Shown: positions 45,461-63,835, counted from the stretch's first letter. The stretch is 64,000 nt of DNA from a virus (IMGVR_UViG_3300029305_002203:1-64000), one strand, 5' to 3'. The notes: a model not told the origin generated them from the letters alone. Numbers and translations are program-made.

Positions 45461-46420
45461 TCACCCCCAGACTGCTTTCGTTGCGACCCAAGCGGTGCCA
45501 TTATGGTATTTCATTATTCCACCATTACCAGTGTCAATCCATAATAATTCTCTATCAGTAGGAGCTGTAGCACCTATATAACTTCCACCTGAACCTGTTT
45601 CAATTGTTGTCCATGTTGTACCGTTTTTATATTGTAATTCTGCGTTATAAAATCGAATACCATGAGCACCATTCACTGTATTTATAGGTACATCATGTGC
45701 AGTTAATCTGTCGCCTACATTATCTATTTGTTCAGATACATCGTTTAATTGTCCAGCAAAATCACTTAATTGTTCAGCAAAATCGTTTAATTGTGAAGTA
45801 ATATCATCAGTTATATTTGCAAGACATAACCAATTAATATTTGTATCAGTGGGTTCACTGTCAGAATTTTGAACAAGACACTGCCAAAAAGCATTATTAT
45901 GAGCAACAAAATCATTTACTAAATAAAGTGATAAATTATTCCATAAACCTCTTGGGGAAAGTCCCAAACCTGACTCACCTTTCTCACCCTGAATAATTCT
46001 TGGAATCCAATATGTAGTGTTTGTTGGAAGAGTAGCAATAGGTGTATCATCTCTTAAACATTCAAATGTTTGAGTTATGCCATTAACCGAATATGTTACA
46101 AAATTGTATTTTACATATTTGGTTGTTGAATTCCATTCACCTTTATTGACTACTGTTTCATGTATATATGTTTGTATATTATTTAAAAATAAATCTTGGA
46201 CTTCTTCGATAGTCTTACTCAATCTATTCATATATACACTGTCAATAATACATTTTTGTAATTCTGCATTAGATTGTAATAATGTAGCAGCATTAGCAAA
46301 TTGACCATTTGCTATATAACTATTAAATTGTCTCCAGTCAGAATACACACTACTTGATACATCTGTTTTTAAATCAAATCTTTGTACACTGTCAGGAAAC
46401 GTTGTATAACTATTTGCCAT
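45461..46420 (-). CDS. tail fibre/baseplate-associated protein (module B)
   Basis: GEWNSTTKY/GLWN..Y repeats, QGEKGESG, GATAP...LWIDT. Confidence 0.7.
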   Translation of the reverse strand: MANSYTTFPDSVQRFDLKTDVSSSVYSDWRQFNSYIANGQFANAATLLQSNAELQKCIIDSVYMNRLSKTIEEVQDLFLNNIQTYIHETVVNKGEWNSTTKYVKYNFVTYSVNGITQTFECLRDDTPIATLPTNTTYWIPRIIQGEKGESGLGLSPRGLWNNLSLYLVNDFVAHNNAFWQCLVQNSDSEPTDTNINWLCLANITDDITSQLNDFAEQLSDFAGQLNDVSEQIDNVGDRLTAHDVPINTVNGAHGIRFYNAELQYKNGTTWTTIETGSGGSYIGATAPTDRELLWIDTGNGGIMKYHNGTAWVATKAVWG

Positions 46421-46431
46421 ATATTTTCCTC

Positions 46432-47841
46432 CTAGCTATAAGGATCTGTATCATAAAAAGCAACCATGCTAACATCCATAGTACCTCCAGTTGTTGATCC
46501 GTTTATTTGTTTTGTTACATATCTTTTTATATCTTTAGTAGTGTATGATTGATGTTCAATTAACCAATTAACATCCAACCAAGGAATATCAATCATATTT
46601 AAATTTATACTTTCTTGCAATCTACAAGCATGATAAAGTTCATAATTTGCTCTATCTTGAGCTAATGAATTTGAATAAATCTTACTATATTCATCACTGG
46701 ATAATATCTTAGTTATTTCTTCCCCAATATTAGACTTATGAAATGGTGAGAGAGTGTTTGTTTCACTTGCTTCTGCATACACCTGATGTTCACCAAGCCA
46801 ATAAAAGTCATTATTTACTTTTCTATATTTGAATACATTGTATGTTTCTATGGCAAGCGTTTTTGCAGGGATATGTTTTCCTTTGTCATCTACAATATAA
46901 GCCGTTGTTCCTGCAATAGTTAACTTGGAATCTGCACCATTTGTTTGAGGAATAAGAATTGCATATAAATCAAAGTTGCCTACAGATGTGACAGTTGCAA
47001 TAGTGGGAGTATATGTATTAGTAGAAGTATCATAAGTACATGTATCCGTAGAATAAGTTGGTTCTAATTGTTGTCCCCATACAACAACTCGGTTATATAT
47101 TTCTTTAAATGAAGTGTTTAAACCCTCACTGATAACAAGAGGAGAAATAAAATCATAGGTAAGCAAAATATTATCACTATCTTGATGTGGGATTTTTTGA
47201 ATAATAAATGTACCATTAATATCAAAAAACATTTCAAAATCAGAAAATAAAGAAACTACTTCGTTTAATACATCATAATAAGTTTGTGTTGCATCAAATT
47301 CCATTTCGTATGGAATAAGTAATCCATCTAAGTCAGATAAAATATATTTAGTTACATTTGCTTCTTTAAGAAGTGTAACAAGTAATTCTCGAACATTTTC
47401 ATCTTCCTCAAACTTAATAGAACTCTTTAATGCACCGTTTCTGTCACCATTTAATTTACTCATAAGATCCGAACAACTAAGTGAAAGAGTATTAGTAGAT
47501 GAATCAAAAGAGTAATTACTGTCAAGCATTATAAATGTGCCTTTAAGATATTTAATTATCTCACCAGTTCGAACCTCCTTGATGCAAATATAAGGTCTAA
47601 TATACTTGTCCATCCATATACGTTTATCAGTTCCTATTAACATAGAACTATCAGTAACTAATAAATCCATAGAATAAGTTCGTCTAATCGCAGAGTTTGC
47701 ATCAATAGAAAACGAATCAGATATCAATTTCCCTTCTACAACATCAACAACTTTCATATCTGAATTTAACAACTCAACAGTTACAAACAAATCCTTTACA
47801 TTTTGATTTATGATATTTTTATCTCTCTGAGTAATAACCAT
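46432..47841 (-). CDS. tail hub/Tal-like protein (DUF5048-like), module B
   Basis: SAIRRT, MFFDINGTF, IPWLDVN. Confidence 0.65.
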   Translation of the reverse strand: MVITQRDKNIINQNVKDLFVTVELLNSDMKVVDVVEGKLISDSFSIDANSAIRRTYSMDLLVTDSSMLIGTDKRIWMDKYIRPYICIKEVRTGEIIKYLKGTFIMLDSNYSFDSSTNTLSLSCSDLMSKLNGDRNGALKSSIKFEEDENVRELLVTLLKEANVTKYILSDLDGLLIPYEMEFDATQTYYDVLNEVVSLFSDFEMFFDINGTFIIQKIPHQDSDNILLTYDFISPLVISEGLNTSFKEIYNRVVVWGQQLEPTYSTDTCTYDTSTNTYTPTIATVTSVGNFDLYAILIPQTNGADSKLTIAGTTAYIVDDKGKHIPAKTLAIETYNVFKYRKVNNDFYWLGEHQVYAEASETNTLSPFHKSNIGEEITKILSSDEYSKIYSNSLAQDRANYELYHACRLQESINLNMIDIPWLDVNWLIEHQSYTTKDIKRYVTKQINGSTTGGTMDVSMVAFYDTDPYS

Positions 47842-47844
47842 AAG

Positions 47845-48735
47845 CTATACTCCTTCCACATCGACATCAGATAAACCAGCATTGTAAAGATCTGTTGTGC
47901 TATCACTGTCGCCTATTTCCGTGAATTCTATATTATAAATTATATTATCTGGATGACCATCTACTGATTGAGAGATTGTATTACCGGTGCTAACCATCCA
48001 TCTTCGCCCTTTGTTATCCTTTAAAATCATAGCTTGATTTTCTGTTAAAAAATTATTTACTTCTCGTCTGTAAGCAACGGCATTTTCAAAATCTAATTGA
48101 CAATTATCTTTCACTGGTACAAAACTTGTACTCATAGAAAGTGTATCATATTGTGACATTCCGTTAGAGATAGCAAATGGTTTCTTTCTGCCAAGAGTAG
48201 TTATAAATTCCTTATTCTGATTTGTTGTTACTTCCAACGATAAATTCACAAATGCATGATATTGTTTTGCTTGTGTACACAAGTAACATCCATCAAAATC
48301 TGATATAACAGTATTGGTTATATAATTGGCCTCTGTACTATTTAACACCGGAACAATTGCAACTTCGTATTGTGTTTTATTCCCTTTGAGATAGTAATAA
48401 GTTTTAGCAAAATTAAAATCTTCCTCGGAATTAATCTCGTATTCGTAGATGGTTCTCCATAAGGTGTCGCCATATTCTCTTACCTTAATCCTCATAGAAC
48501 TTATTGCACTAATTGGAATCAGAATATTTCCAGCAAGTAAATTCCCCTGGAATGTTGCCCAGAAGATTGTATTAATGTCCCAAATTAAAGAATCGTTTTG
48601 TTTGTTATAATCTGCATTTGCACTAACATATAAATCATTAATTAAACAGTTCATTACATCAATAACATTTATATTATCTCCCAATGTTGTTTTAAGCACA
48701 TCCGTGCCAGTTACAGTCGCACCAAGAAAAATCAT
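47845..48735 (-). CDS. distal-tail-like protein, module B
   Basis: YEVAIVPV, ILKD.KGR.W, FTEIGD. Confidence 0.6.
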   Translation of the reverse strand: MIFLGATVTGTDVLKTTLGDNINVIDVMNCLINDLYVSANADYNKQNDSLIWDINTIFWATFQGNLLAGNILIPISAISSMRIKVREYGDTLWRTIYEYEINSEEDFNFAKTYYYLKGNKTQYEVAIVPVLNSTEANYITNTVISDFDGCYLCTQAKQYHAFVNLSLEVTTNQNKEFITTLGRKKPFAISNGMSQYDTLSMSTSFVPVKDNCQLDFENAVAYRREVNNFLTENQAMILKDNKGRRWMVSTGNTISQSVDGHPDNIIYNIEFTEIGDSDSTTDLYNAGLSDVDVEGV

Positions 48736-49745
48736 ACAATCACCTCCATTTCAAAGAGAGTATCTTTTCTTTTAATCCATAACGAAATCTCATCTTCTGT
48801 ATATGGATTAGCTTTTGTAATCATATAATCATTATTTTTATATATTGCATGAAGTTCAAAATAATATATATCAGAAAACGTATCATATTTATAATCAACA
48901 ATGACAATTTCATCATTTCCTGATAATCTTAAAATTCTTTCATTTACACCAAACTGTGAACCCTTAATTAATAATGAAAAGTCTCCTGAAATAGTAAATC
49001 CTTTATTGAAATGAACAACATTATTTGTCAAGTCTGCAATCTCATTATCAATATAAGTAACATCAGAGTCAGATGTACCTTCTACAGATATAATGTTGGA
49101 TTTCATATAAACTCCACCAGTGTCATACATATTCTGTAACTCAAGTACAAAATATGCTTCCGATTTAATAAAGTCAGCAGAAAAATTAATTCTACCAGTA
49201 GATAACACTATACCATTGATTGTTTCCCCTGTAGCAAGAATAGAATAGTGGTTATTATCTTGTAAGTTAGTTATTTTTACAGTATCAAGTACATAACGTG
49301 TATTAGAATCGTATATTACAACACTATCTGAGTTGTATACTCTAATACGATATGATTGTAACAATTCTCCCTCTGATTGAGCATAGGCAATATTTACACC
49401 ATATGTCTGTGCCTGTATAATTTGGTCTGGTTCAATGTTGATTTGAAAAGTGGGAGTTGAATAGCAATAGAAGAGAAGAACATCTGACCATTCAGAATTA
49501 ACACCATTGCTATCAGTAACCCTAATCGCAGCATTATATAAAGTACCATTTACTAAGCCAGATGAAATAGGTATCGCATGTTCTAATCTCATTGTTGTTT
49601 GAGTCTGTTCGTATACCACTTCGTTTGTTGTGTTATTTTTTATCACAAGTGTATTACTAATAGGTTGATTCCCTAGCCATGAGAACTTAATTGTACTCCC
49701 AAGGGAGGAGTCAAAGCTAGGTATCAAATATAAGCCCGGTTTCAT
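48732..49745 (-). CDS. Ig/FN3-like tail protein, module B
   Basis: SEWSD.LLFYCYSTPTF; tail context. Confidence 0.6.
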   Translation of the reverse strand: MKPGLYLIPSFDSSLGSTIKFSWLGNQPISNTLVIKNNTTNEVVYEQTQTTMRLEHAIPISSGLVNGTLYNAAIRVTDSNGVNSEWSDVLLFYCYSTPTFQINIEPDQIIQAQTYGVNIAYAQSEGELLQSYRIRVYNSDSVVIYDSNTRYVLDTVKITNLQDNNHYSILATGETINGIVLSTGRINFSADFIKSEAYFVLELQNMYDTGGVYMKSNIISVEGTSDSDVTYIDNEIADLTNNVVHFNKGFTISGDFSLLIKGSQFGVNERILRLSGNDEIVIVDYKYDTFSDIYYFELHAIYKNNDYMITKANPYTEDEISLWIKRKDTLFEMEVIV

Positions 49746-49754: not shown

Positions 49755-50003
49755 CTAATGAGGCAATATTATTGCATTAATCCAACTGTTTTCTGGTAAT
49801 AAAACATATACAATATCATTCTCAGAATAATCTCCATTACTTACTACAACATGAGAAACACCATCTTTTTGTACAACATATTTATTATCAGCAACTTTTG
49901 AAACAACCCTACATTTATATGTCTTATCGAATTTTGCAGAACTAATTACCTTATTACAAACTGTAAATATAGCATCGGATAAAGCATTACTAATTTCTCT
50001 CAT
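49755..50003 (-). CDS. small baseplate/tail protein
   Basis: FDKTY...V.VLLPEN; directly after tape measure. Confidence 0.55.
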   Translation of the reverse strand: MREISNALSDAIFTVCNKVISSAKFDKTYKCRVVSKVADNKYVVQKDGVSHVVVSNGDYSENDIVYVLLPENSWINAIILPH

Positions 50004-50029: not shown

Positions 50030-50067
50030 AAAAAAAGGGGCAGTCATAAATTAATATGACCGCCCCT
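50030..50067 (-). terminator. intrinsic terminator after tape measure
   Basis: GGGGCGGTCAT...ATGACTGCCCC-TTTTTTT on - strand. Confidence 0.7.
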
Positions 50068-50073: not shown

Positions 50074-53000
50074 TTATTTAGAATGTAGTTTCTGAATTAC
50101 TTTTAGTGGTAATTCCTTAACTATTTCATCAACGATCATATCCGAATTATCCGGATTATAAACGTTAATATCACCAATGGTAATTTCCATAGGCGAATTT
50201 TCTCTTTTGTTAATTGGTGCAATGGAAGAATATGCTTTGTTTAAGTTACTAAACATATTTCCCATTTGATTATTAGTTAACACAACTTCTCCATAAAGAA
50301 GTTTTGCCAGTGTTTCATTTGGTTTTAAGTTGTCCTCTGTTAAAGCTACAAAGTTTTCAGGTAATTTATTCTTAGAGGTCGGCTTACCAACAATACCACC
50401 AGAATGGTATAGATGCATTGTTGCACCATTTTTACCACCTTTGTTTGAAGTTGTGTTACCTTTCGTGCCATTACCTTTGTTTCCATTAGTTCCAGCACTC
50501 GCAGCTTTTGCTTGATAATCAAGAATTTGTTTATAAGTTTCTTTTGCATTGGTAAGAATGGTTTCCAATGAACTAAAAGCAGAGTTAGCCTTACTTACCT
50601 GTGAAGCAATTTGACCATATAAAGACACAGCAACATTTTTAAATTCCTCTAATTTTTTCTGTCTTTCGTCTAAAATAGTGGCCTCAGAATCCTTTGCAGA
50701 AGTATGTGCCGATGTAACAAATTCAAGAGCAGAAGTAATATTAGCATCTGCCTCTGTCCATTTATCAGATAATTCTTTTGTTTCATCAGTTCTATTCTGA
50801 ATAGCCTCTAATTCTTCCTCGTTCTCAACTATTGCTTTATTGATTGCATCTTGAGCTGCCTTTATCTCTAATTGTTTAGCGAGATAGGCTTCAGCTTCTT
50901 CTCTGATTTGCTGCATAGTAGTATTGTTTGCATCAATCTTTTCTTGAATGGTATCTACTTCAGTTTTAGCATTATTTAATGAAGTTTCTAAGATTGTTAA
51001 TATACCTTCATCTTGTTGCAGAATACTATTTTCACCAGATGCTTTAAACAATTCAAGAAATGCTCTTTTAGAAATCAATCGTTCATAACTATCGGAAACT
51101 GCATTTAATTTCTTAGCATATTCTTCCCATGTCTTAATTTCATTATCAATAATTAATAAGTCATCTTCTTTATTTTTATTTAAAGTATCAATCTGCTTAT
51201 CAAAAGAAGCGATAGTATTATTATAATTCTGTTGGTCTAATTCTTGTTGAGCATCACGAATAGCATCCTGATCTGCTTCATAAACAAAACCTTCTCCGGC
51301 ACGATAGATACGCTGAGTCTTGTTTCGCATAGCTTTTTCAAGATTATACTTGGCATTCTCTAAATCAATTTCTCTTTGACGTTCATCATTAGACTCTGTA
51401 AGAGCATCCTTTTGTTCTTGGATTGCTTTGATTTGCTCATCATAACCATCTGATAAAACTTGTCTTCTTTCATTTAAAGCTTCAATTTCATCTTGGACAA
51501 GAATGTTAGCATATCCAATTGCACTTTCTATTTTTGACTGTAGTTTGGTCTGATAGTCTAAATCTTCTTCCAATTCCTTATTTAAATCTTCGTACTGTTT
51601 TATTGGCAATAGAAGAATAGCTCTATTATTTTCTATTTGAGCAATAGTACAGGCATTAATATTATCCTGAGCCTCTTGTACTTGGTCATTATATTCCTTA
51701 TATGCTGCGGTTCCCCATTTTTCGCCATCACGTTTTGCGATAGCTGCTTTAAGGTCAGCTTTATATATCTCTTTGTTTTTTTCATGTAAGGCATTCATAT
51801 CCAAGTATTGCTGTGCAGTTCCTTGACCACCTCTGGCTTCTTCCAAATCTATGTCGTTTTGAATATCTTGGATTCGGCTATTATAATAACTGGTTTTATT
51901 AGCACGACCTTCTCTGCCATTCTCATATTTTTTATCTGGTTCTGCCTCTACATATTCATCATAAGCCTTTTGAAGTTTTAATCGTTCTTCTTCGGTGGTT
52001 GCCAAAGCCAGATTAAGTTTTAGTATTTCACCTTTGATTCTTTTTTCTTCGTCAAGCCATTTATTTTTTTCAGCGACAGTCATACTTTCTTGGTCTACAA
52101 GATTATGATTTTCAAGATTTAATTCATTTTGCTCAAGTAGTGTGGAATTGACTTCGTCTTCATTCGCTTTAAGTTTTTCAACAGCATCGTTATTTTGGGT
52201 TATTGAATCTTGCCATCTATCATAAATCTCAACAAGCTTCATAACTCGATTGTATTCTTCCTCGTTGTCAAAGTTCTCAATTGTTAGCTGACTTCTATCA
52301 CCGGTTATCAATTTTATATATTTGGGGTCAATTTTAGCAGACTCTGTCTCCCAAATGCTTTTATATTCTTCAGAAGCTTCTGCGGTGGCAGTAACTAAAT
52401 CCTCGTTTGCCCCCTTTAATTGCTTTAATACAGCCAATCTTTCAGTAAAACCCTCTGTATTACTAAGAGTGTTATCAAGTTCTTCAATTCTACGATTGGC
52501 ATTTTCTACAGATCTTGCAAACCAGTCAAAATCTTCTGAGAATTTTTCTTCTTCACCTGAATCAGATCCAGAAGCACCAAATGGAAGATCGGTTCTAAAA
52601 TCTGGAACAACAGTAGAAATAGAAGTATTAACTCCATTTATAATTTCTTCTATCTCAACAAGTTCTTTTTCTGCTTGTACCATATCATCATATGCAGATA
52701 TAGAGGGATTTAAATAGTGAGTCCGGTCATTAACAGTTGATTCGTATTTTCTTTGAGCACTTTCAAATATTAATTTTTTACGAGCATACTCTTTATCCAT
52801 AGCAAGTTTTGCTTCAAGATAATTTGAATAGTTGCCTAACTCTATGCCATATTCTTTTGCCTTATTAATTAAATCTTCTGATAAACCATCAACAACAAGA
52901 TCATAGAAAGATTCATCTTCGCCTTTTTTCTGAGCCATATATAATTTGTAATTTTGCAAATCTGCTTCGTATTCTTTTTGTAAATCCCTTAATAAATCTT

Positions 53001-54738: not shown

Positions 54739-54803
54739 ACATTATTATAATACATAATATATTAGGGGTATATTATATATTCAAATTCAACTTTTACGGA
54801 TAA

Positions 54804-55346: not shown

Positions 55347-55411
55347 CCTTAGTCATATCTGACTCCTCCCTCTTTTGTTCTAGTCTTATAAATATTTATA
55401 AGAATTTTTAT

Positions 55412-57103
55412 TTACACGGTTTTCCTGTCTTCCTTATGACCATATTGTAAGTAATGCAACACATATGGTTTATAGCCATCCTTTTCTCCAAATGCATTTT
55501 GTAAATCGGGATTGCTTGATTTATAAATTGTAACATTAAATGTACTTTTTGCTTGACGACCCTCTTTAATACCATAATTAATATAGTGATTAAATAATTT
55601 TGTAGCATCAGTACCAAAATGCCTCTTCAAATCACTATAAGAATTTGCATAGTACATAGGATCGAATACAAGAGAATAATCAACTCCGTTATATACATAT
55701 CCCTTTGTCGTAGTGATATCTAATGGTTTTGAGGTTGAAGTAGAACTGGAAGAAGATAATTTAAGAACTTGTCCAACCTTAACGATATAAGGAAATTTAA
55801 TCCTATTTAAATTAGCTATTGTTTTCCATGCAACACCAGTTTTCTGTCCAATCTTAGAAAGAGTATCACCTTTCTGTACAATGTAAGTATTTGCTGATAC
55901 TGTTATAACAGGGGAGTTAGTAATTGGTGTAGAAATACTATTGTCTACCTTTATTCCCACATAATCTAAAAATCCTTTAGCTACATCTTCACCTTGTTCC
56001 TTGCAGAACATTTCAGTTTTCATTAATGCCGCTTCTTCTTTATTAGTCATAAAACCAATTTCAACCAGGCAAGCAGCTTTAACATTCATAGCAACACAGT
56101 TACACATTGCAAGAGATTGTTTCTTTACACCACGATTCTTTTGTTTTGTGCCTTGAACAAGTCGTGCTTGTATTTTAGTTGCCATTGCAAAAGAGTCACC
56201 AATATATGCAGAATTACTATGAATTAATGTTTCTACTCCATTTGCAGAGTTCCATACTGATTGATGTGCATTAGCATGAAAAGAAATAGAATAGTGACAA
56301 CCCTCATTCTTAATTTGTTTCTGTCTTGTTGATAATGCCACATCAGGATCATCTGTTGCATTAGTATCATCCCAACCAACTCTGAATGTTGATATGCCGT
56401 ATTTCTGCAAATACTGTTCACAGTAGTAAGCAGATTTTACGTTAATCCAGTGTTCCAGATGGTTGTCCGGGGTGCGCTTACCGGCAGTATTACTGCCATG
56501 ACCAGCATCTATTGCCACTTTGCATACCATATTCCCATCCTCCTTTACTTTAATCTTTAAAATATCATTTAAAATATCCAAAACCTGATATCCATAACTG
56601 TCCTTTGCTTTATTTGCCTCTTCCAAGCTTTTATACTTCTTGGTGTTATAACCCGGTACAGCCCAAGTCCCACCTAAATCTTCCATATGAGGAGCAGTCC
56701 CACCTTTAACATTTATAAACCACTGTGTTCTTCTAGGGTCTACATTTAGTTCATTTAAAGATGATTTAGTCGCATAAGATTTTGCATGTTGTGCGTGTGC
56801 TAATATACCAATTTCAATGGAAGTAAAAGAGCAACCTGGAACTCCACCGGTAGCACCAATACCGGCAAAATTATTTTGTGTATATTTAACATCTCCACCA
56901 TACTTTAAGTTGCCTGTTTCTTTAAGCATCTGACAGAAGATTAAATCCCCACGAACACCTTCTTTTGCTGGAATATCTAAATATAGCTGGCAAAACTCTA
57001 TGACAGATATACTTCTTGAAAGTTTAGGATTTTTATTTTTAGACAATAAATAAGAAGCCATCTGTTGTGCAGTGGCTTGTGATTTTCCTAAAATTAAAGT
57101 CAT
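55412..57103 (-). CDS. endolysin: glucosaminidase + amidase_3 + LysM + C-terminal binding repeat
   Basis: ETG...NNFAGIGA; IDAGHG...SFHANA...LVEIGFM; YIVQKGDTLSKI; FDP.YY..Y.DL. Confidence 0.9.
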   Translation of the reverse strand: MTLILGKSQATAQQMASYLLSKNKNPKLSRSISVIEFCQLYLDIPAKEGVRGDLIFCQMLKETGNLKYGGDVKYTQNNFAGIGATGGVPGCSFTSIEIGILAHAQHAKSYATKSSLNELNVDPRRTQWFINVKGGTAPHMEDLGGTWAVPGYNTKKYKSLEEANKAKDSYGYQVLDILNDILKIKVKEDGNMVCKVAIDAGHGSNTAGKRTPDNHLEHWINVKSAYYCEQYLQKYGISTFRVGWDDTNATDDPDVALSTRQKQIKNEGCHYSISFHANAHQSVWNSANGVETLIHSNSAYIGDSFAMATKIQARLVQGTKQKNRGVKKQSLAMCNCVAMNVKAACLVEIGFMTNKEEAALMKTEMFCKEQGEDVAKGFLDYVGIKVDNSISTPITNSPVITVSANTYIVQKGDTLSKIGQKTGVAWKTIANLNRIKFPYIVKVGQVLKLSSSSSTSTSKPLDITTTKGYVYNGVDYSLVFDPMYYANSYSDLKRHFGTDATKLFNHYINYGIKEGRQAKSTFNVTIYKSSNPDLQNAFGEKDGYKPYVLHYLQYGHKEDRKTV

Positions 57104-57166
57104 AATTTCACTTCCTTCTAAAGTAGAAGAGTACGGTGATATTTCACACCGTACTCTTAATTACAA

Positions 57167-57514
57167 TTATTTACTTGTATTACTAGCAAGTTCTTTTGCA
57201 GTATTCAAATCTCTAACCGCTGATTCGATTAAAACATTCAATTCTTCCTCAGTAATAGAGTATTTGGTCTTATCAAGAATACCGTTAATAAAATTAAGAA
57301 CATATTCCTTTTTCTGTTCTCCAAGACCAGTACCAACAAAAATCTGTTCTGCAGCTCTTACTGCATAATCAACATACATTGCAATAGTATCAAACTTTTC
57401 TGCACCGATTTCCTCTTTAAGTTTAGGAATTACATATCTTGTAATTAAAACAACAGCCACTGTAATAACTAAACCAATTACCATTTTTAAAATTTCCATC
57501 ATCCATGTTTCCAT
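57167..57514 (-). CDS. holin (LL-H family-like)
   Basis: N-terminal TM, AVRAAEQ...G.QKKEYV...LIESAV. Confidence 0.8.
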   Translation of the reverse strand: METWMMEILKMVIGLVITVAVVLITRYVIPKLKEEIGAEKFDTIAMYVDYAVRAAEQIFVGTGLGEQKKEYVLNFINGILDKTKYSITEEELNVLIESAVRDLNTAKELASNTSK

Positions 57515-57581
57515 AATTCATTTCTCCTTTTCTTTTATGAAATTAAAAAAGAGCCAATATAGGCTCTCAGTTACCATAACT

Positions 57582-57839
57582 TTATTCATTTAATATTTGA
57601 TTAATATCAATTTGTTCCCATATCTCTTTTGGTAAACTACCTAATACTTTAGGAACATTTTCTTTTGCTGATTTTTTTAAGTACCAAATATTACAGGTGG
57701 CAACCTCGCCCCAAGCAAGAGCAGCAATAGTAGTAATATTTGACATATCTAAATTAAAAAAAGTTCCCACAACCAAAACAATTGTAAGAACTATTGCAGA
57801 AATATAACTTGCTAATAATATTTTTTTACTTGTCTCCAT
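57582..57839 (-). CDS. two-TM small membrane protein (holin-like)
   Basis: SKKIL, two TMs, Y.KKSAKEN. Confidence 0.6.
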   Translation of the reverse strand: METSKKILLASYISAIVLTIVLVVGTFFNLDMSNITTIAALAWGEVATCNIWYLKKSAKENVPKVLGSLPKEIWEQIDINQILNE

Positions 57840-57851: not shown

Positions 57852-58883
57852 TTATATCTCTTCAAAACTTTGTTTATCATTATTCCATTTATATTTATAA
57901 TCTGAAATCGGTTCTTTTGTCTTATATGAAGCTATTTGATTAAGAGTATCACCGTCAGACCCTATAAATATAATACTATTTTTCATTTGAAGCGACTCAT
58001 AAAATAATATTGCATTAACCTTAACATCAGGGTCACTCCAAAATAGTTCCCATATATTTAAATCATTTTTTTTTAAACAATAAAACCCACTGCCGGCACT
58101 ATATTCATATAGATATATTTTATTATCATATAGAAATAGAAATTGTGGTCTAAGTTCTTCACATTCTATATTTTCAATATATGAAAAACTATTTGTAGAT
58201 TCTTTATAACTAATTATATAATGCTTTTTCGAAGCAAACATATGAATTTCATCTTCTATAACATATCCACGTTTATAAATATTATCATCAATTGATGGTA
58301 TAATACCTCCACATGGAATCCATTCCTGCTGTGCTTCATCCCACACACAAGTTCCATTATAATTAATATTGGAAACTGTTATATTTCGATATAAACAAAA
58401 TAATTTATTGTGTAACACAAAATAGTCACAATATCTTGAACTACTAAATTCTGTATCTCTAAATCCAATGTGAGCAGCACCAATTTTATATGCTGCCCTA
58501 TTTGTTATTTTGGGGTCATAAACATACATTTCGTTTTTCGCTTCATACATAATATAAATTAAATCATTATATACTATCGCATGACATGGATCCGTGTATT
58601 GTGGTAAAACACTTGGTTTTTCGCTCCATTTAAATCCATTATATTTCATAACGCAATAAGGGGACATGACATTATTACTACAATTAAAAACATAAATATT
58701 ATTATCATATAAAACCGAAGCCTTCTCTGGATGATTAAATTTATATTGATTACCATCAGAATCTTTTGGTAAATCTGGCAAACGTCCATATTGTGAAAAC
58801 ACTTCTTTTCCATTATGAATCCAGTTAACAATATTATAATTATTAAACAAAACATTGTTTATTTCAATTCCGTTATATATCAT
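57852..58883 (-). CDS. Kelch-like beta-propeller, putative receptor-binding protein (module A)
   Basis: Repeats VLYDNNIYVF, IVYNDLIYIM, VLHNKLFCL, VIEDEIHMF, LYDNKIYLY. Confidence 0.55.
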   Translation of the reverse strand: MIYNGIEINNVLFNNYNIVNWIHNGKEVFSQYGRLPDLPKDSDGNQYKFNHPEKASVLYDNNIYVFNCSNNVMSPYCVMKYNGFKWSEKPSVLPQYTDPCHAIVYNDLIYIMYEAKNEMYVYDPKITNRAAYKIGAAHIGFRDTEFSSSRYCDYFVLHNKLFCLYRNITVSNINYNGTCVWDEAQQEWIPCGGIIPSIDDNIYKRGYVIEDEIHMFASKKHYIISYKESTNSFSYIENIECEELRPQFLFLYDNKIYLYEYSAGSGFYCLKKNDLNIWELFWSDPDVKVNAILFYESLQMKNSIIFIGSDGDTLNQIASYKTKEPISDYKYKWNNDKQSFEEI

Positions 58884-58893
58884 TATTGCCTCC

Positions 58894-59127
58894 TTATTCT
58901 GTATAATCAGATGAACGTGTGGTTAATACACCTGTTTCTTCATCAAAAGAAACAATAAAAATACAACTATTTAATTGAGTTGTCATATCATCAATTTTTT
59001 GCGTCAAACTAGACCCATCACTCATTTCAACTGTATCAGCATGAGTCCATTCTGATACAAGTTTATAATTTTCATCATCAATTTTTAAATGTCGTTTGTA
59101 TTTTTCGTATCCAGATAATATTGACAT
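58894..59127 (-). CDS. small tail-associated protein
   Basis: WTHADTVEMSDG motif seen in fibre proteins. Confidence 0.55.
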   Translation of the reverse strand: MSILSGYEKYKRHLKIDDENYKLVSEWTHADTVEMSDGSSLTQKIDDMTTQLNSCIFIVSFDEETGVLTTRSSDYTE

Positions 59128-59145
59128 ATTATCCCTCCTTTTTTC

Positions 59146-59865
59146 TTACATATTTAAGCCGATGATTCCAAAGATATTTAAACCGTATGTTACTGTACTG
59201 TTTCCAATACGAACAACACATTCTCCATTATATTTTCCAATATTAGCAGTAATCTCAGAATAAGAAGCAGAAGATGTATGTGTATAATTTAATACTTCAG
59301 TATCATTTATTGTTATTGTAAAATTCTCATTTGCATAAAGATAAGCATCAATCTGCAATTTTCTTATACTAGATAAATCCATTTTAAGTTCTATATATGA
59401 ATCTGAATTAACAAAATTTTTGGCAGATGATCCATTTGCATACTTACCATTTGTTAGTCTAAGACCATTGGAATATGAACCTAATGTAATATTATTCTCA
59501 CTCTCTAAGGTACAATTAGTGTATGCCCCATCACTATTACTAGATGCATTGTAATAATATAATTCACTAGGAGGTTGCAACCACCATGTTTTTTTGTCGG
59601 CATCTTCGGTTGGCTCATCACTTAAATATATCTCATCTAATGAATATTCATTGTTTAAAATATGAGTTCCTAAAATATTAATTCTTTCAGCCAACTCATT
59701 AAAAAAAGATGCTCTAGCACCTTTGTCATAATTTTCTTCGTCTAAATAATTAGTGGCTTCTGTATATTTCCCCTCATTAATCAATGCAGCATGTGTATCA
59801 ATTACATCTCTATCGTTTGCCCCCATATCACTTAATGGTTTAAATTTTAATTCTTCTATTTGCAT
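59146..59865 (-). CDS. tail fibre/adaptor protein (module A)
   Basis: N-terminus related to 59878-60207 and 45461-46420; SDEP...WWLQP. Confidence 0.55.
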   Translation of the reverse strand: MQIEELKFKPLSDMGANDRDVIDTHAALINEGKYTEATNYLDEENYDKGARASFFNELAERINILGTHILNNEYSLDEIYLSDEPTEDADKKTWWLQPPSELYYYNASSNSDGAYTNCTLESENNITLGSYSNGLRLTNGKYANGSSAKNFVNSDSYIELKMDLSSIRKLQIDAYLYANENFTITINDTEVLNYTHTSSASYSEITANIGKYNGECVVRIGNSTVTYGLNIFGIIGLNM

Positions 59866-59877
59866 ATTTCACCATCC

Positions 59878-60207
59878 TTACATGGGTTGAAACCAAGAAC
59901 CATTTTGTAATTGATCTTCCGGTTCCTCACTACTAATAATGGTAGGAGAGTAATACATACTAAACACTCCCATATTATATACTTCTTCGCTCAATCTATT
60001 AACGAAAGCACTATTTATAATGTATGGTTCTAACACAGATTTATTAGCTTCATAATACTGATAAGCACCTGAAATATCTTCCTGATCAATATATTCATAA
60101 TAAGTATCAATCATTGTTTTAACAGTATCATTCACATCTTGTTTTTCCACAAAACTAGGCAAAGATGTCGGAAAAGTGCTTCCGAAATTATGATTATAAT
60201 TTGGCAT
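59878..60207 (-). CDS. tail adaptor protein (module A)
   Basis: STFP...II.S...NRL paralogous to N-terminus of 45461-46420. Confidence 0.6.
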   Translation of the reverse strand: MPNYNHNFGSTFPTSLPSFVEKQDVNDTVKTMIDTYYEYIDQEDISGAYQYYEANKSVLEPYIINSAFVNRLSEEVYNMGVFSMYYSPTIISSEEPEDQLQNGSWFQPM

Positions 60208-60210
60208 TTA

Positions 60211-61830
60211 TTATCCCTCCTCCTTTGTTATTAAAAATAAAGGATAGAATCTCGACATTGTAATAGAAGTAGTACAAGACTCCATCTCATTAGATATGCT
60301 TTTAACTATATATTGATGAACAGTATCATCTTGTTGTTTTTGATATTCTACTTTTGTGTTTGTGTCTAAAAATGGTATCATTTTTGTTGCAATCGTTACC
60401 GTATCAAAAACAGAAGAAGATTGTTTGTTGTAATATTTTGCGTTTTCTATTGCTACTGAATCAGATAAAATATTATCCCATTCATCACCATATTTAACAT
60501 CTAACACTTCTCCAATTTTCTGTACAGCAAAAGGACTATCTGGTTCAACTCTTAATACTACATTTCTTTCATCACAATTATACTTATTAGCAAAATATGA
60601 AATAGTATATTTAGAATCATCTGCATTATTAGTCAATGCACAAAGAGCATGAGGTTGATATTGCCCTAAGTAATAAGCAACCAATTTTGTTCCTTGTTGT
60701 GCTATTTTAAATACATAAGTTTTAGCAGACTCAATTGTACCCGGCTCAATACTTTCCTCTGTAAATTCTTTGTAGATTGGCAATACATCTAATTCATTAA
60801 TTTGAAATTTCATATTTGTAATGTTAGTAGATGGTGAAACAAATCCAATATAATCTCCGACATCATATCCTTCATAATCCTCTAATGTAAGTACATAGGT
60901 ATCATTATTTGTCGTACAATCTGTACAATATCTATCCACTTCATATGATTTGCCAAAAACTTCTGTAACATTTTTAATGGTATCAATCGAATATGTTACA
61001 TTTTCGGTTGATTCAGCTAACAATATTTGTTGTAAATAATCATTATCTAAAATCACTGAATCATTTTCTCTTGAAGGAATCATATTAAAACAAAAATGTC
61101 CGTATATATCAAAATACATCTCGTAATTTGGATAGAGATTTTTAATCTCTTCGAAAATTTCTGAGATGTAAGCACCTACACTATATTCTAAATCATAAGG
61201 AAGTTGATTCCATAATGGTTGCAGCTTTCTATATTCTTCATAATTTTCATTGAATTCCGGTAATGCCTTTGGTTCTCCAACATCGCTAATGATATAATCT
61301 GTAATTCCAGCTAATTCTTTTAGAATATCTTCGGTAAGTTTCTTAATAATTACAGGATTTCCGTCTTTGTCATAATTCGGAATGTCAATAATTGGAGCAC
61401 CACCTAATTGCCCATTTCTTGTGCCATTAAAAATAGAGTACCAATCGGACAGATTAAGAGTAAGAGAGTTATCAATAGCACTATATACAGTATTAGCTTC
61501 AGTGATTAAATAATAACCACAATCAAACCATTTATAGTCATCATCTCTTAAACTATATATACCTATTTGTAATAAAAAATTATATCCAATCCAAGAAAAT
61601 AATCTTGTTTCAATAGAAAGCTCTGAATAATATGTGTCTAACAACAGTGTGAGAGAAGTGGTTCTTCTTATATCTGAATCAGGATCAACTGCATATGAAC
61701 CTATATTTGAAATACCAACTAATTCATCAATATAATTTCTATTATTGTCTAAAACAATTAATTTATATTTATAATCTACGGACGGTTGTGTTATTAAAAG
61801 TTTATCATCTTCTGTAATGAGATAATACAT
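60211..61830 (-). CDS. tail hub/Tal-like protein (DUF5048-like), module A
   Basis: SDIRRT, EMYFDIYGHF, IPFLDTN; paralog of 46432-47841. Confidence 0.65.
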   Translation of the reverse strand: MYYLITEDDKLLITQPSVDYKYKLIVLDNNRNYIDELVGISNIGSYAVDPDSDIRRTTSLTLLLDTYYSELSIETRLFSWIGYNFLLQIGIYSLRDDDYKWFDCGYYLITEANTVYSAIDNSLTLNLSDWYSIFNGTRNGQLGGAPIIDIPNYDKDGNPVIIKKLTEDILKELAGITDYIISDVGEPKALPEFNENYEEYRKLQPLWNQLPYDLEYSVGAYISEIFEEIKNLYPNYEMYFDIYGHFCFNMIPSRENDSVILDNDYLQQILLAESTENVTYSIDTIKNVTEVFGKSYEVDRYCTDCTTNNDTYVLTLEDYEGYDVGDYIGFVSPSTNITNMKFQINELDVLPIYKEFTEESIEPGTIESAKTYVFKIAQQGTKLVAYYLGQYQPHALCALTNNADDSKYTISYFANKYNCDERNVVLRVEPDSPFAVQKIGEVLDVKYGDEWDNILSDSVAIENAKYYNKQSSSVFDTVTIATKMIPFLDTNTKVEYQKQQDDTVHQYIVKSISNEMESCTTSITMSRFYPLFLITKEEG

Positions 61831-61831
61831 A

Positions 61832-62743
61832 TTACCACCAGCCCGAACCTACATTGGTTAAACCTGCGTTATACATTGTTTTCATATCATTATAATCGCC
61901 AATTTCAACCCATTCAAAGGTAATATCTCTAACATCACGATGACCACCGTGAGAATCTGTTGGCATACCAGTAACTCTTATCAACCACATCCGTCCATCA
62001 TCAATTTTAAGAATTAAAGGTTTATGTTTTGCCAATCTGTTTTTTAAATCATTTCTATATTGGAGACTTGCTGCTCTGTCTAATTCTGTATGTGTTACAT
62101 CATCCATTTTTAAAAATGTTCCCGTAATTGAACCACTATCACAGTTAACAGAAGAGTTTGACACAACATTCATATATTGATTATTAAGTAATCCTAATGA
62201 TTGATTTTGTATATTTCTCGTAGTGTTGCATCCATCTACATTATAAACAGTTCCATATATAGAATCTTTATCTGCAATATAAAATCCAGCAAATTCTGAA
62301 TATACTTCTCCAATAATATAACTATTTTCTACACCGTTCATATAAGAAGAAATGCAGTATTCGTAATTTGTTTCTGACTTTGCAAAACTATCTCTAAATG
62401 TAAAAGAAAAGTCACCTATATCATTTATCTTTTTGACAAAAATAGTATTCCAATTAATTTCTCCCTTTTCACGTCTGCGAATTGCAATATATTCTGTGAT
62501 GGTTAAATTAAAACCAGTGTTACCTGCTTCTAAACTACCTTTCGTAAAATTCGCATATGCTTGTGTATAATCAGTCCACTGGTCAGAATTTAAAACATCT
62601 GTTGTTTCATCAGAAGAAGATGAAAGATATAAGCGTCTATAAGTACCTTCGTATAATGTCATTTCGTCTATTGATTCTTTTGGTGTAGGTGGAGAAAGTA
62701 AAGAACGTTTTCCACTACAAAAAGTTGTACCTAAAAATAACAT
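61832..62743 (-). CDS. distal-tail-like protein, module A
   Basis: MLFLG, ILKIDDGRMW, WVEIGD; paralog of 47845-48735. Confidence 0.6.
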   Translation of the reverse strand: MLFLGTTFCSGKRSLLSPPTPKESIDEMTLYEGTYRRLYLSSSSDETTDVLNSDQWTDYTQAYANFTKGSLEAGNTGFNLTITEYIAIRRREKGEINWNTIFVKKINDIGDFSFTFRDSFAKSETNYEYCISSYMNGVENSYIIGEVYSEFAGFYIADKDSIYGTVYNVDGCNTTRNIQNQSLGLLNNQYMNVVSNSSVNCDSGSITGTFLKMDDVTHTELDRAASLQYRNDLKNRLAKHKPLILKIDDGRMWLIRVTGMPTDSHGGHRDVRDITFEWVEIGDYNDMKTMYNAGLTNVGSGWW

Positions 62744-62758
62744 GCTTTATTCCTCCTT

Positions 62759-63835
62759 TTATAAATCTTTATATGAAATATTGAAATAATAATAATCACC
62801 ATATCTCTTTATTTCAAAAACCATGCTTTTTCCAGAAACATAAATTTGTCCATTCTCATATGTTGCATCCGGAATTAATATATATTGATTATGGTCAGTA
62901 TTTTTAACATTAAATCTACAATAATAATCTCCACATACATCAACAATACTTAAAGAATAAGTATTATCTTTTGTGGAGAAAAACTTTTTCACAGGAAGTT
63001 TGACTGCCTCTATATATAATGCAAAATCATTTTCTACCAAAAAACCATCATTATAAGTTATACTATTGTCATCAGAAATAATTAAAGCATTATCATCTAA
63101 TGAATAATTGCCATTCTTAATTTCATATCCAATAACTTTAAGACTAACTGAAACTGTAATGTAACCATTACAATAATTATTTTCTAATTGCAAAGTTACA
63201 TTATTTGGAGGTATTGTTTCGTAATTGACATGAATTTGTATATACCCTGTGTCTAATGGCATTCCATGAACAGTTTCTCCAATCGCTCGAAAACTATAAT
63301 ACCCATCATTATTCATTTTATAAAAACTATATGTCATTGAAGTTGTAGAATAAGATGTGTTTGAAGAATTGATAAGAGCACCATTAACATCATATTGCAA
63401 AAATTGAAAACTTTTAATGGATTCATTTTCTTTTTGAGAATAGTTTAAACTTAAGGTGATATCAGAACCATTGTATTCCGAACCATCTACAATTTCATTA
63501 AATGAAAATGTTGGTGTCGAAAAACAATAGAAGAGTACAGGGTCAGATAATGAACTCTGTTTTTCAACCGTTCCAGTTTCTGATATGTATAATACTTGAA
63601 TTTGAATTAAGTATTGATTCCCCGGTTCCAAAATATCTTTATAAATAGTATATGTTGTTCCACCAATGATACGAGTTTCATCAACAACTGTTTGTCCAGT
63701 TAAATTATCCACAATGACAGCACGTATTCTATTATGTTGTTCTCCAGCATACACAAAATTTATTTCATTATTATATTTTGGATCAAATGGGATAATCGCA
63801 TTAATCATTGGAGTTGGTAACATTTTAATTGCCAT
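62759..63835 (-). CDS. Ig/FN3-like tail protein, module A
   Basis: SD.VLFYCFSTPTF, GETVHG..L.TG; paralog of 48732-49745. Confidence 0.6.
   Translation of the reverse strand: MAIKMLPTPMINAIIPFDPKYNNEINFVYAGEQHNRIRAVIVDNLTGQTVVDETRIIGGTTYTIYKDILEPGNQYLIQIQVLYISETGTVEKQSSLSDPVLFYCFSTPTFSFNEIVDGSEYNGSDITLSLNYSQKENESIKSFQFLQYDVNGALINSSNTSYSTTSMTYSFYKMNNDGYYSFRAIGETVHGMPLDTGYIQIHVNYETIPPNNVTLQLENNYCNGYITVSVSLKVIGYEIKNGNYSLDDNALIISDDNSITYNDGFLVENDFALYIEAVKLPVKKFFSTKDNTYSLSIVDVCGDYYCRFNVKNTDHNQYILIPDATYENGQIYVSGKSMVFEIKRYGDYYYFNISYKDL

What the first reader, a model, noticed from the sequence alone, without database searches (positions are those of the whole stretch)
45461..63835. Two complete paralogous tail-tip modules in one genome
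Seen: module A (62759-63835, 61832-62743, 60211-61830, 59878-60207) and module B (48732-49745, 47845-48735, 46432-47841, 45461-46420) match gene for gene in order and motif (FYC[FY]STPTF; M[LI]FLG...ILK..GR.W...EIGD; IRRT...FDI.G.F; TFP...NRL). They are highly diverged and end in different tip proteins (Kelch propeller vs Cys-rich rSAM substrate). The lysis cassette lies between them. Inference: the phage may build two virion types with different host ranges, a heteromeric tip, or a separate tailocin-like particle.
Basis: partly seen in the sequence, partly recalled or inferred. Interest (0 to 1): 0.75.

Follow-up and report, generated by a model that had tools for sequence, protein, structure and literature searches.

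The report
Two tail tips, one spliced ruler gene
This large gut-bacterium phage carries two complete, distantly related sets of tail-tip genes, each headed by its own alternative back half of the tail-ruler (tape measure) gene with a splice-acceptor signal, so one genome probably builds two kinds of tail by alternative RNA self-splicing, although no RNA or virion data exist yet.

Summary
Modules A and B match gene for gene at 25-31% amino-acid identity, with no DNA similarity and all ORFs intact.

Each module follows its own copy of the C-terminal part of the tape measure protein (TMP). Copy A is at genome 68321-71830, outside the window. Copy B is at window 50074-54738. Both of these ORFs lack a Shine-Dalgarno site, and both begin at the same 11-mer, GTTTGATATTT.

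The single TMP 5' exon (genome 81774-73732) ends at a group I-type 5' splice site. P1 has a U.G pair and occurs in four covarying versions among relatives. The guide sequence also pairs with AUAUUU, which starts both downstream exons in frame after a G.

Each acceptor has its own hairpin whose loop matches a box in the intron, and compensatory changes are seen in relatives. At least five independent assemblies keep the order lysis cassette, acceptor B, module B. This rules out a chimeric assembly.

Best reading (about 0.6): alternative 3' splice-site choice gives two TMP isoforms, each matched to its own tip, and hence two tail types. Nothing has been shown at the RNA or virion level. This scan noted the same arrangement earlier in at least three other genomes. 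I found no published description.

The parts
62759..63835 (-). Module A gene 1 (358 aa), an FN3-rich tip protein
   Evidence: 27% identical to B1. The B1 model (pLDDT 89) is FN3-FN3 plus a beta-sandwich, and its matches include T5 pb4 and lambda gpJ FN3 strings.
61832..62743 (-). Module A gene 2 (303 aa), a Dit-like/tube-initiator ring protein
   Evidence: phrog_27355. 29% identical to B2. The fold was inferred from the B2 model.
60211..61830 (-). Module A gene 3 (539 aa), the DUF5048 hub-type protein
   Evidence: PF16467, E 1.6e-30. The orthologue in G005 is 47% identical. Homologues of 54-76% identity occur in Lachnospiraceae contigs.
59878..60207 (-). Module A gene 4 (109 aa), a fibre N-terminal adaptor domain only
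   Evidence: 31% identical to the N-terminus of B4.
57852..59865 (-). Distal genes specific to module A (239 aa, 77 aa and a 343-aa beta-propeller-like protein)
   Evidence: ORFs with Shine-Dalgarno sites. The Kelch-like fold is a lead only.
54804..57839 (-). Lysis cassette between the modules: two holin-like genes, the endolysin and a 180-aa membrane protein
   Evidence: Amidase_3, LysM and Glucosaminidase domains, and endolysin PHROGs.
54750..54780 (-). Acceptor-B hairpin with loop CCCCUAA (54768-54762)
   Evidence: The MFE fold shows the loop. The CCUAA(C) loop is kept on covarying stems in six relatives. It is complementary to the GUUAGGG box at genome 73356-73350.
54736..54740 (-). GUUUG. 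The terminal G (54736) is the proposed omega-G of 3' splice site B
   Evidence: It is identical to site A (genome 71832-71828). These are the only two GTTTGATATTT copies in the record, and both sit at the starts of the TMP-C ORFs.
50074..54735 (-). Alternative TMP 3' exon B (1553 aa)
   Evidence: It has no Shine-Dalgarno site (+0.9 kcal/mol). It is paralogous to exon 2A. It aligns to the C-part of the PMBT24 TMP. The in-silico spliced product aligns colinearly across the junction with uninterrupted TMPs.
50036..50067 (-). Strong intrinsic-terminator-like hairpin directly after exon 2B
   Evidence: 13-bp stem with 7 GC pairs, then a T7 run. Its role is unexplained.
49755..50003 (-). 82-aa gene heading module B
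   Evidence: ORF with a Shine-Dalgarno site. Relatives have an 80-94-aa or 292-aa gene here.
48732..49745 (-). Module B gene 1 (337 aa), an FN3-FN3-beta-sandwich protein
   Evidence: Model pLDDT 89. Foldseek hits are FN3 tandems, T5 pb4 and lambda gpJ.
47845..48735 (-). Module B gene 2 (296 aa), with a Dit-like tube-fold C-domain (residues 148-296)
   Evidence: Model pLDDT 78. VIA gives Z 10-10.8 to baseplate tube-initiator/Dit chains and Z 8.6 to SPP1 Dit.
46432..47841 (-). Module B gene 3 (469 aa), the DUF5048 hub-type protein
   Evidence: PF16467 4e-29 and phrog_1887 'tail protein'. 837 homologues. The PMBT24 orthologue is annotated as baseplate hub.
45461..46420 (-). Module B gene 4 (319 aa), a tail-fibre protein
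   Evidence: Tail-fibre families phrog_26419 and phrog_5073.
42404..45491 (-). Distal genes specific to module B: a Cys-rich protein, a 115-aa protein, a radical SAM enzyme and the operon terminator
   Evidence: ORFs. The block is conserved with B in relatives (cys 45-77%, rSAM 67-86% identity). Terminator at 42436-42404.

Best explanation
The phage encodes two alternative siphovirus-type tail-tip complexes, and RNA splicing chooses which one a given tail receives. Each complex has an FN3 protein, a Dit-like ring, a DUF5048 hub and a fibre adaptor, plus its own distal proteins.

The TMP gene has one 5' exon (genome 81774-73732, 2681 aa) that ends in a group I-type intron. The intron's guide sequence can align two different 3' exons. 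Exon 2A (genome 71827-68321, 1168 aa) lies 1.9 kb downstream and heads module A. Exon 2B (window 54735-50074, 1553 aa) lies 19 kb downstream, past module A and the lysis genes, and heads module B. Each acceptor is marked by its own hairpin, whose loop pairs with its own box in the intron.

Splicing to A or to B would give TMP isoforms of 3849 or 4234 aa that share their N-terminal part but differ in the C-terminal part. By established knowledge of siphovirus tail assembly, the C-terminal part nucleates the tip complex. Each isoform would therefore recruit its cognate tip, and one burst would contain two tail types, probably with different receptor specificity and slightly different length.

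Shown here: the paralogy, the genetic coupling, the splice-site geometry with its covariation, and conservation across genomes. Inferred: that splicing to B happens, that both tips are built into virions, and that host range differs.
For: (1) Five colinear paralogue pairs.

(2) The PMBT24 TMP (1508 aa, one ORF) aligns with its residues 20-457 to the end of our exon 1, right up to the splice site, and with residues 1111-1301 to exon 2B. Exon 2A has the same conserved block. In-silico spliced A and B products align colinearly through the junction with uninterrupted TMPs of single-tip relatives. B extends to query position 459-485 and A to 385.

(3) The two TMP-C ORFs lack a Shine-Dalgarno site (-0.5 and +0.9 kcal/mol) and start at TTG, whereas every gene of modules A and B has an ATG and a site of -6 to -12 kcal/mol. 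In two relatives the codon before exon 2A is TAG or CTG, so that exon cannot start translation on its own.

(4) P1: the exon end CGAUGGU pairs with GCCAUCG, with U.G at the splice site. Relatives have CGAAGGU/GCCUUCG, CGGUGGU/GCCACCG and AACGGU/GCCGUU.

(5) P10: AAAUAU, just 5' of the P1 guide, pairs with AUAUUU at the start of both exons. In G003 the guide is GAGUAU and exon 2B starts AUAUUC, which is compensatory. In the single-tip relative the guide GAAUAU pairs with AUAUUC. All junctions are in frame.

(6) Loop A and its box covary: UUCCACAU/AUGUGGAA, AAUCCACAA/UUGUGGAUU, AUCCACA/UGUGGAU and UCCACAAC/GUUGUGGA. Loop B CCUAAC pairs with GUUAGG, with one compensatory C-G to U-A change in ERZ27297751. 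The box is missing in the one relative that has no block B at the syntenic place.

(7) RNAalifold finds P7-, P8- and P9-like helices with both-side changes.

(8) The layout is kept in G002, G003, G005, ERZ27297751, ERZ27297753 and ERZ27302496.

(9) There is published precedent for group I introns of about 19 kb with genes inside (abstract of PMC6545197). There is also precedent for alternative 3' acceptors of a bacterial self-splicing intron (PMC3919590).
Against: There is no RNA, proteomic or imaging evidence.

Rfam's group I model finds nothing in three of these introns, even at E up to 10. The catalytic core is assigned only by eye and by RNAalifold on five sequences.

Every B acceptor seen also offers a possible start codon, TTG in six genomes and ATG in one. 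Independent, Shine-Dalgarno-less translation is therefore not excluded.

A 19-kb splice in a translated bacterial transcript would have to compete with the nearer site A.

A strong terminator-like hairpin lies between exon 2B and module B.

Support for the loop-B/box pairing rests on one compensatory change plus one presence/absence case.

A search of metagenome contigs for a spliced or intron-less junction gave only chance matches.
Confidence: 0.6

Rival explanations
1. Block B is expressed on its own. The 1554-aa ORF is translated from its TTG as a free-standing TMP-like protein. Module B then builds an accessory structure, either a second layer or side appendage of the same tip (a heteromeric tip) or a separate particle that uses shared tube proteins.
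For: All seven B acceptors have TTG or ATG at the junction. A terminator-like hairpin separates exon 2B from module B. Block B is always at the operon end as a self-contained unit.
Against: There is no Shine-Dalgarno site, unlike every gene of modules A and B. The ORF lacks the TMP N-terminal domain that uninterrupted homologues have. The P10 pairing of exon 2B covaries with the guide in G003. The acceptor hairpin and its matching intron box have no role in this model.
Confidence: 0.17
2. TMP heteromers: both isoforms are made by splicing but co-assemble in one tail, giving a single virion type with a composite tip.
For: The shared 2681-aa N-terminal part could drive mixed oligomers. This is inference only.
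Against: The C-parts differ by 385 aa and are only about 30% alike in their best block. Relatives pair block B with an unrelated Dit/Tal tip at position A, which is hard to fit into one ring-shaped tip.
Confidence: 0.08
3. Block B is a relic or a selfish cassette left by recombination at the intron-exon boundary and has no function in the virion.
For: A and B are not each other's closest relatives, and position A is swapped between tip types, which shows frequent module exchange.
Against: All B ORFs, including the 1450-1750-aa TMP-C, stay intact across lineages that have diverged to 40-75% protein identity. The acceptor hairpin keeps its loop while its stem covaries.
Confidence: 0.06
4. The switch acts on DNA, by inversion or deletion between repeats as in the Mu G segment or shufflons.
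For: The two 11-mers are direct repeats. Tyrosine-recombinase genes exist at 38172-39452 and at genome 85217-86287.
Against: There are no inverted or long direct repeats around the modules. Deletion between the 11-mers would remove the lysis genes. The repeats sit exactly at RNA-level P10/omega-G positions that covary with the guide.
Confidence: 0.03
5. Misassembly of two phages.
For: The record is a linear metagenome-derived contig, estimated 56% complete.
Against: The same gene order occurs in at least five independent assemblies from different samples. No DNA repeat exists that could join two genomes, and composition is uniform.
Confidence: 0.02

Closest known systems
C.te.I1, the alternatively splicing group II intron in the S-layer locus of Clostridium tetani (PMC3919590)
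   Same: One 5' exon and one ribozyme. Several downstream acceptors are each marked by a small copy of an intron 3' element and followed by a different in-frame ORF, giving protein isoforms.
   Different: That intron is group II, its acceptors are duplicated D5/6 motifs, and it is chromosomal. Here the intron is group I-type and the acceptors are hairpins that dock by loop pairing. The far exon is 19 kb away with 16 genes in between. Each isoform is tied to a whole set of structural genes. Splicing here is not demonstrated.
Group I introns in phage genes, including tape measure genes (B. cereus-group prophages, PMC2504315). The only natural phage alternative splicing I found reported is exon skipping (Twort orf142, SIOphi polymerase; PMC11878797).
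   Same: A self-splicing-type intron interrupts a phage structural gene, with P1, P10 and omega-G geometry.
   Different: The known cases have one 3' exon per intron, and the alternative products arise by skipping an exon between two introns. None offers two alternative 3' exons.
Invertible host-range segments (Mu G, P1 C). This comparison rests on established knowledge.
   Same: A constant 5' part of a tail gene is joined to one of two variable 3' parts, each with its own downstream partner genes. This gives two particle types from one genome.
   Different: Those systems act on DNA through an invertase and inverted repeats, and they swap only fibre tips. Here no such repeats exist. The swapped unit is the TMP C-part plus the entire tip complex, and the join would be made in RNA.
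Enterocloster phage PMBT24 and the CB457P1-type phages (about 100 kb, siphovirus, 238-nm tail; PMC11035940)
   Same: The same tip cassette directly after the TMP: 381-aa, 309-aa and 471-aa DUF5048 'baseplate hub' proteins, then a chitin-binding fibre.
   Different: They have one TMP and one tip module, with no second acceptor.

Membership tests
Siphovirus tail-tip (Dit/hub) module | Lies directly downstream of the tape measure coding sequence | tested here: met
   B: exon 2B, then an 82-aa gene, then B1-B4. A: exon 2A, then 160-aa, 1127-aa and 122-aa genes, then A1-A4. PMBT24 has the same order.
Siphovirus tail-tip (Dit/hub) module | A ring protein with the tail-tube/Dit fold | tested here: met
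   B2 residues 148-296 give Z 10-10.8 to baseplate tube-initiator chains and Z 8.6 to SPP1 Dit. For A2 this is inferred from 29% identity.
Siphovirus tail-tip (Dit/hub) module | A trimeric hub (Tal/gp27-like fold) | tested here: inconclusive
   Gene 3 has only DUF5048, phrog_1887 'tail protein' and a depositor's 'baseplate hub' label. The PDB profile search gave no hit. I made no model of it.
Siphovirus tail-tip (Dit/hub) module | The proteins are present in virions | not testable with these tools
   Needs mass spectrometry or cryo-EM.
Group I intron | P1 helix between the 5' exon end and an internal guide, with U.G at the splice site | tested here: met
   Six or seven pairs with a terminal U.G in all six introns. 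There are four covarying versions.
Group I intron | The 3' splice site follows a G, and P10 forms between the guide and the 3' exon | tested here: met
   G|AUAUUU at both sites pairs with AAUAU-type guides, with compensatory changes in G003 and in L170/L171.
Group I intron | Conserved catalytic core (P3-P9, with the guanosine site in P7) | tested here: inconclusive
   RNAalifold gives P7-like GACUA/UAGUC, and P8 and P9 helices with both-side changes. R- and S-like boxes were seen by eye. Rfam RF00028 gives no hit, even at E up to 10.
Group I intron | Self-splicing with exogenous guanosine | not testable with these tools
   Needs an in vitro splicing assay.
Alternatively splicing self-splicing intron (C.te.I1 type) | Several acceptor elements, each followed by an in-frame alternative exon | tested here: met
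   Two acceptors, both in frame, conserved in at least five genomes.
Alternatively splicing self-splicing intron (C.te.I1 type) | Group II ribozyme with duplicated D5/6 motifs | tested here: not met
   The geometry here is group I type (P1, P10, omega-G). The system works like C.te.I1 but is not a member.
Alternatively splicing self-splicing intron (C.te.I1 type) | Alternative spliced RNAs observed | not testable with these tools
   The junction 18-mer scan of metagenome contigs gave only chance hits.
Invertible host-range segment (Mu G / shufflon) | Inverted repeats flanking the variable segment | tested here: not met
   Only short AT-rich chance matches were found, and there is no DNA similarity between the modules.

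The most novel reading that the evidence does not exclude
A group I ribozyme acts as a built-in selector. Two dedicated docking hairpins compete for one catalytic core, so that a fixed or regulated fraction of TMP mRNA is joined to a far exon 19 kb away, in cis or in trans. Each burst then contains two virion types that differ in tail tip, tail length and host receptor. This would be bet-hedging of host range written in RNA. The B tip would carry a radical-SAM-modified Cys-rich protein.
Probability: 0.45. Interest if true: 0.95.

Novelty: categorically new. Interest (0 to 1): 0.86.

Why it matters
Known ways for one phage genome to make particles with different specificity act on DNA (invertible segments, diversity-generating retroelements) or add extra fibres to one baseplate.

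In this phage, the part of the ruler protein that seeds the tip and the whole tip complex appear to be exchanged together, through the choice of a 3' exon by a self-splicing intron.

If confirmed, this would be the first functional alternative 3' exon choice by a group I intron. It would also be the first phage shown to build two tails from one genome by RNA splicing.

The consequences would be practical as well. Host-range prediction for gut phages, annotation of 'split' tape measure genes, and engineering of switchable phage tails would all be affected.

The idea is directly testable with RT-PCR and virion proteomics.

Tried and rejected
- **Rfam.** Runs at gathering and at E-value thresholds on the intron of this phage, G002 and G005 gave no group I hit.
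- **blastn against cultured phages.** The intron core found nothing among 50,697 phage records.
- **First IMG/VR search.** A single-protein search for B3 relatives found none. An alignment-based search worked.
- **Loosened DNA pattern.** A pattern meant to find variants of the B box returned only chance hits beyond the five introns already known.
- **Gene 3 and NCBIfam.** A PDB profile search for gene 3 and NCBIfam scans of ten proteins of the two tail regions gave nothing.
- **Possible alternative partner for the B box.** RNAalifold proposed that the GUUAGGGCU box pairs with a GCCCU stretch near P2. I did not adopt this as the main reading, because that stretch is not conserved in G005 or L098. 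The single-tip relative also lacks the box while keeping the rest of the 3' domain. It remains a possible competing pairing.
- **Rejected readings.** I rejected a chimeric assembly, recent tandem duplication and a DNA inversion switch.
- **Not done.** I did not calculate dN/dS, because the A orthologues are too diverged.

Full report
**What the window is.** The window is the first 64 kb of a 95,564-bp linear IMG/VR virus record that CheckV rates as 56% complete. GC content is about 31%. The left arm is transcribed rightward and the region above 39.9 kb leftward. All features of the finding lie on the minus strand in one long late operon. That operon continues beyond the window to the head genes. 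Coordinates above 64000 in this report are genome coordinates, which continue the window numbering.

**The observation.** The eight ORFs are real. They pair up in order:
- A1/B1 are 27% identical (E 2e-22).
- A2/B2 are 29% identical (E 5e-31).
- A3/B3 are 25% identical (E 2e-36).
- A4 matches the first 70 residues of B4 at 31% (E 2e-7).

All quoted motifs are present. Both gene-2 proteins belong to phrog_27355. Both gene-3 proteins end in DUF5048, and these are the only two copies in the record. An all-against-all comparison of the two regions shows no other cross-matches except one further pair upstream, described below. At the DNA level the modules share nothing, and GC3 is similar. Every module gene has an ATG and a Shine-Dalgarno site, so neither module looks decayed.

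**What the proteins are.**
- The B1 model (pLDDT 89) has two FN3 domains plus a beta-sandwich. Its matches include the FN3 strings of T5 pb4 and lambda gpJ.
- The B2 model (pLDDT 78) has a C-terminal domain (residues 148-296) with the tail-tube/Dit fold. It scores Z 10-10.8 to tube-initiator or Dit-type chains of several baseplates and Z 8.6 to SPP1 Dit.
- Gene 3 has no solved relative by sequence. It carries only DUF5048, a 'tail protein' PHROG and the depositors' label 'baseplate hub' in Enterocloster phage PMBT24.
- B4 hits tail-fibre PHROGs.

PMBT24 is a 100-kb siphovirus with a 238-nm tail and a 1508-aa TMP (PMC11035940). It has exactly one such cassette directly after its TMP. 'Tail-tip module' is therefore a fair name, although the hub fold was not tested.

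A 2694-aa ORF (genome 73690-81774) carries the PhageMin_Tail domain and TMP PHROGs only near its C-terminus. Its last 470 residues align to residues 20-457 of the PMBT24 TMP, and the alignment runs right to the end of the ORF. The rest of the PMBT24 TMP (residues 1111-1301) aligns to the 1554-aa ORF at window 50074-54738. That ORF in turn is paralogous to a 1169-aa ORF at genome 68321-71830 (31% over 198 aa, with colinear weaker blocks). The genome thus has one TMP front half and two TMP back halves, and each back half heads one tip module. These two ORFs lack a ribosome-binding site (-0.5 and +0.9 kcal/mol, against -6 to -12 for every gene of modules A and B). Both begin at the same 11-mer, GTTTGATATTT. 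That 11-mer occurs nowhere else in the record.

A note of this scan on the same genome (e1-5905754) proposed a group I intron with two 3' splice sites. I tested that idea.

**5' splice site and guide sequence.**
- The exon 1 frame can be cut after ...GGC GAU GGU (genome 73732).
- About 50 nt into the non-coding stretch lies AAAUAU-GCCAUCG.
- GCCAUCG pairs with the exon end CGAUGGU, giving seven pairs with U.G at the cut. This is the P1 arrangement of group I introns.
- AAAUAU pairs with AUAUUU, which is P10. AUAUUU is the first six bases after the G of GUUUG at both downstream ORFs.
- Both joins are in frame: ...KGDG/IFKDI... for A and ...KGDG/IFDFK... for B.

**Covariation in relatives.**
- P1 occurs in four covarying versions: CGAUGGU/GCCAUCG, CGAAGGU/GCCUUCG, CGGUGGU/GCCACCG and AACGGU/GCCGUU.
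- In G003 the P10 guide is GAGUAU and exon 2B starts AUAUUC, which is a compensatory change.
- In a single-tip relative the guide GAAUAU faces AUAUUC.
- Two relatives have TAG or CTG before exon 2A, so that exon cannot be translated on its own.
- In-silico joined products align colinearly through the junction with uninterrupted TMPs of single-tip relatives. B aligns further past the junction than A.

**The ribozyme core is the weak point.** RNAalifold on five introns finds a P7-like GACUA/UAGUC helix that encloses a hairpin in which all seven pairs show both-side changes. It also finds a P9-like helix. However, Rfam's group I model finds nothing in the three introns scanned (this phage, G002, G005), even at E up to 10. 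Blastn finds no cultured-phage relative.

**Each acceptor has its own tag.**
- Site A is preceded by a hairpin with a UCCACA loop. This loop is complementary to an AUGUGGAA box in the intron's 3' domain (genome 73184-73177). The loop and box change together in relatives: UUCCACAU/AUGUGGAA, AAUCCACAA/UUGUGGAUU, AUCCACA/UGUGGAU and UCCACAAC/GUUGUGGA.
- Site B is preceded by a hairpin (window 54780-54750) whose loop CCCCUAA is complementary to GUUAGGG (genome 73356-73350).
- In six relatives the MFE fold again presents CCUAA(C) in a loop, on stems of different sequence.
- The box is invariant in five further introns. In ERZ27297751 it reads AUUAGGG opposite a CCCUAAUU loop, which is one compensatory change.
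- The only relative examined that has no block B at the syntenic place keeps the A box but lacks GUUAGGG.
- This evidence is good but thin for B. RNAalifold also suggested a competing internal partner for the box.

**Conservation and history.** The order lysis genes, acceptor B, TMP-C-B, module B (with the Cys-rich protein and radical SAM gene in five of the seven) recurs in seven places:
- IMG/VR records G002, G003 and G005;
- ENA contigs from ERZ27297751, ERZ27297753 and ERZ27302496;
- a Logan contig.

A chimeric assembly is therefore excluded.

Of 36 IMG/VR relatives, 35 have one DUF5048 hub and one has two. A single DUF5048 does not mean a single tip, however. G002, G003 and the fragment L098 carry a classical Dit (271-272 aa) plus Tal (1130-1396 aa) after exon 2A. 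G002 and G003 also keep block B, whereas the L098 fragment does not reach that far.

Genomes in which both tips are of the DUF5048 kind are this one, G005, ERZ27297751 and ERZ27302496. Two pairs of hits share the same longest-contig length, which suggests two more such genomes.

In a quick maximum-likelihood tree of 58 hubs, the A hubs of this phage and G005 are sisters. The B hubs form their own clade. Each is nearer to hubs of other phages than to its partner (the careful search did not finish). The pair is therefore old or was assembled by exchange, and both members have stayed intact through divergence to 35-75% identity.

The names that sources give to A3 homologues (Lachnospiraceae, Roseburia, Acetatifactor MAGs) and the Enterocloster phages point to Lachnospiraceae hosts.

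**Mechanism proposed.** The TMP C-terminus lies in the tail tip and, with Dit and the hub, forms the complex on which the tube polymerises. This rests on established knowledge of lambda, SPP1 and T5 assembly. A TMP whose C-part is chosen by splicing would automatically match the tip genes that follow that exon. The predicted isoforms are 3849 aa for A and 4234 aa for B. The difference of 385 aa corresponds to roughly 58 nm of tail.

A splice across 19 kb is unusual but has precedent. Group I introns of that size with genes inside are spliced in corallimorph mitochondria (PMC6545197). A bacterial group II intron uses four alternative 3' acceptors to make S-layer isoforms (PMC3919590). In phages, the only natural alternative splicing I found reported is exon skipping (PMC11878797). 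Searches for group I introns together with tape measure genes found ordinary single-acceptor introns only.

I cannot tell whether B is used in cis or in trans, or in what proportion.

**Open points.**
- A strong terminator-like hairpin (50067-50036) sits between exon 2B and module B. Module B may therefore need read-through or its own promoter.
- Every B acceptor also offers TTG or ATG, so free-standing translation remains the main rival.
- There is no repeat structure for a DNA switch.
- A scan for spliced or intron-less junctions in metagenome contigs gave only chance matches.

**Relation to earlier notes of this scan.** The same arrangement was noted and followed up on at least three other genomes (e1-5688839, e1-5642447, e1-5756738, e1-5688842). 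My tests here were made on this genome and its relatives, independently of those reports.

**Verdict.** It remains an inference until junction RNA or virion proteins are shown.

Noticed in passing
L006:8831-10731 (genome 71831-73731, beyond the window): The intron carries cargo on the opposite strand. One is a 182-aa ORF (genome 71900-72448, + strand). Another is a roughly 25-aa hydrophobic peptide gene with a strong Shine-Dalgarno site and its own terminator (genome about 72866-72943, + strand), which looks like a type I toxin. Relatives carry other cargo at the same place, for example a PemK-family toxin in L171.
   Followed up: partly
window 50036-50067 (- strand): A strong intrinsic-terminator-like hairpin (13-bp stem, T7 tail) lies directly after the stop of TMP exon 2B and before the first gene of module B. 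G002 has only a 25-nt gap there. Its role in expression of module B is unexplained.
   Followed up: partly
window 40738-42080 and 38172-39452: A tubulin-like TubZ (GGGTSSG signature) with a small winged-helix partner, next to a tyrosine integrase. This suggests maintenance as a plasmid-like prophage or a temperate lifestyle. TubZ is 86-90% identical in relatives.
   Followed up: no
L005:5217-6287 (genome 85217-86287): A 356-aa integrase-family ORF (phrog_1, E 2e-32) sits inside the structural operon, between the head genes and the TMP. A RuvC-like resolvase and homing-endonuclease-like ORFs lie next to it.
   Followed up: no
genome 73732-81774 (beyond the window): TMP exon 1 is 2681 aa, and only its last 470 or so residues resemble the N-terminus of the PMBT24 TMP. 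The full isoforms would be 3849 and 4234 aa, which implies tails near 0.6 micrometre if the usual 0.15 nm per residue holds.
   Followed up: partly
L009:14178-16547: In the ERZ27297751 relative, the radical SAM gene of block B is 789 aa and carries an intein with a LAGLIDADG endonuclease (Pfam hits listed). In G002 the TMP front half is itself split by an HNH-type ORF (L090:17595-18518).
   Followed up: no
L006:1361-4744 (genome 64361-67744): A 1127-aa protein with a pectate-lyase-like beta-helix domain (PF12708, E 9e-14) lies between exon 2A and module A. It is probably a depolymerase tailspike that belongs to tip A only.
   Followed up: no
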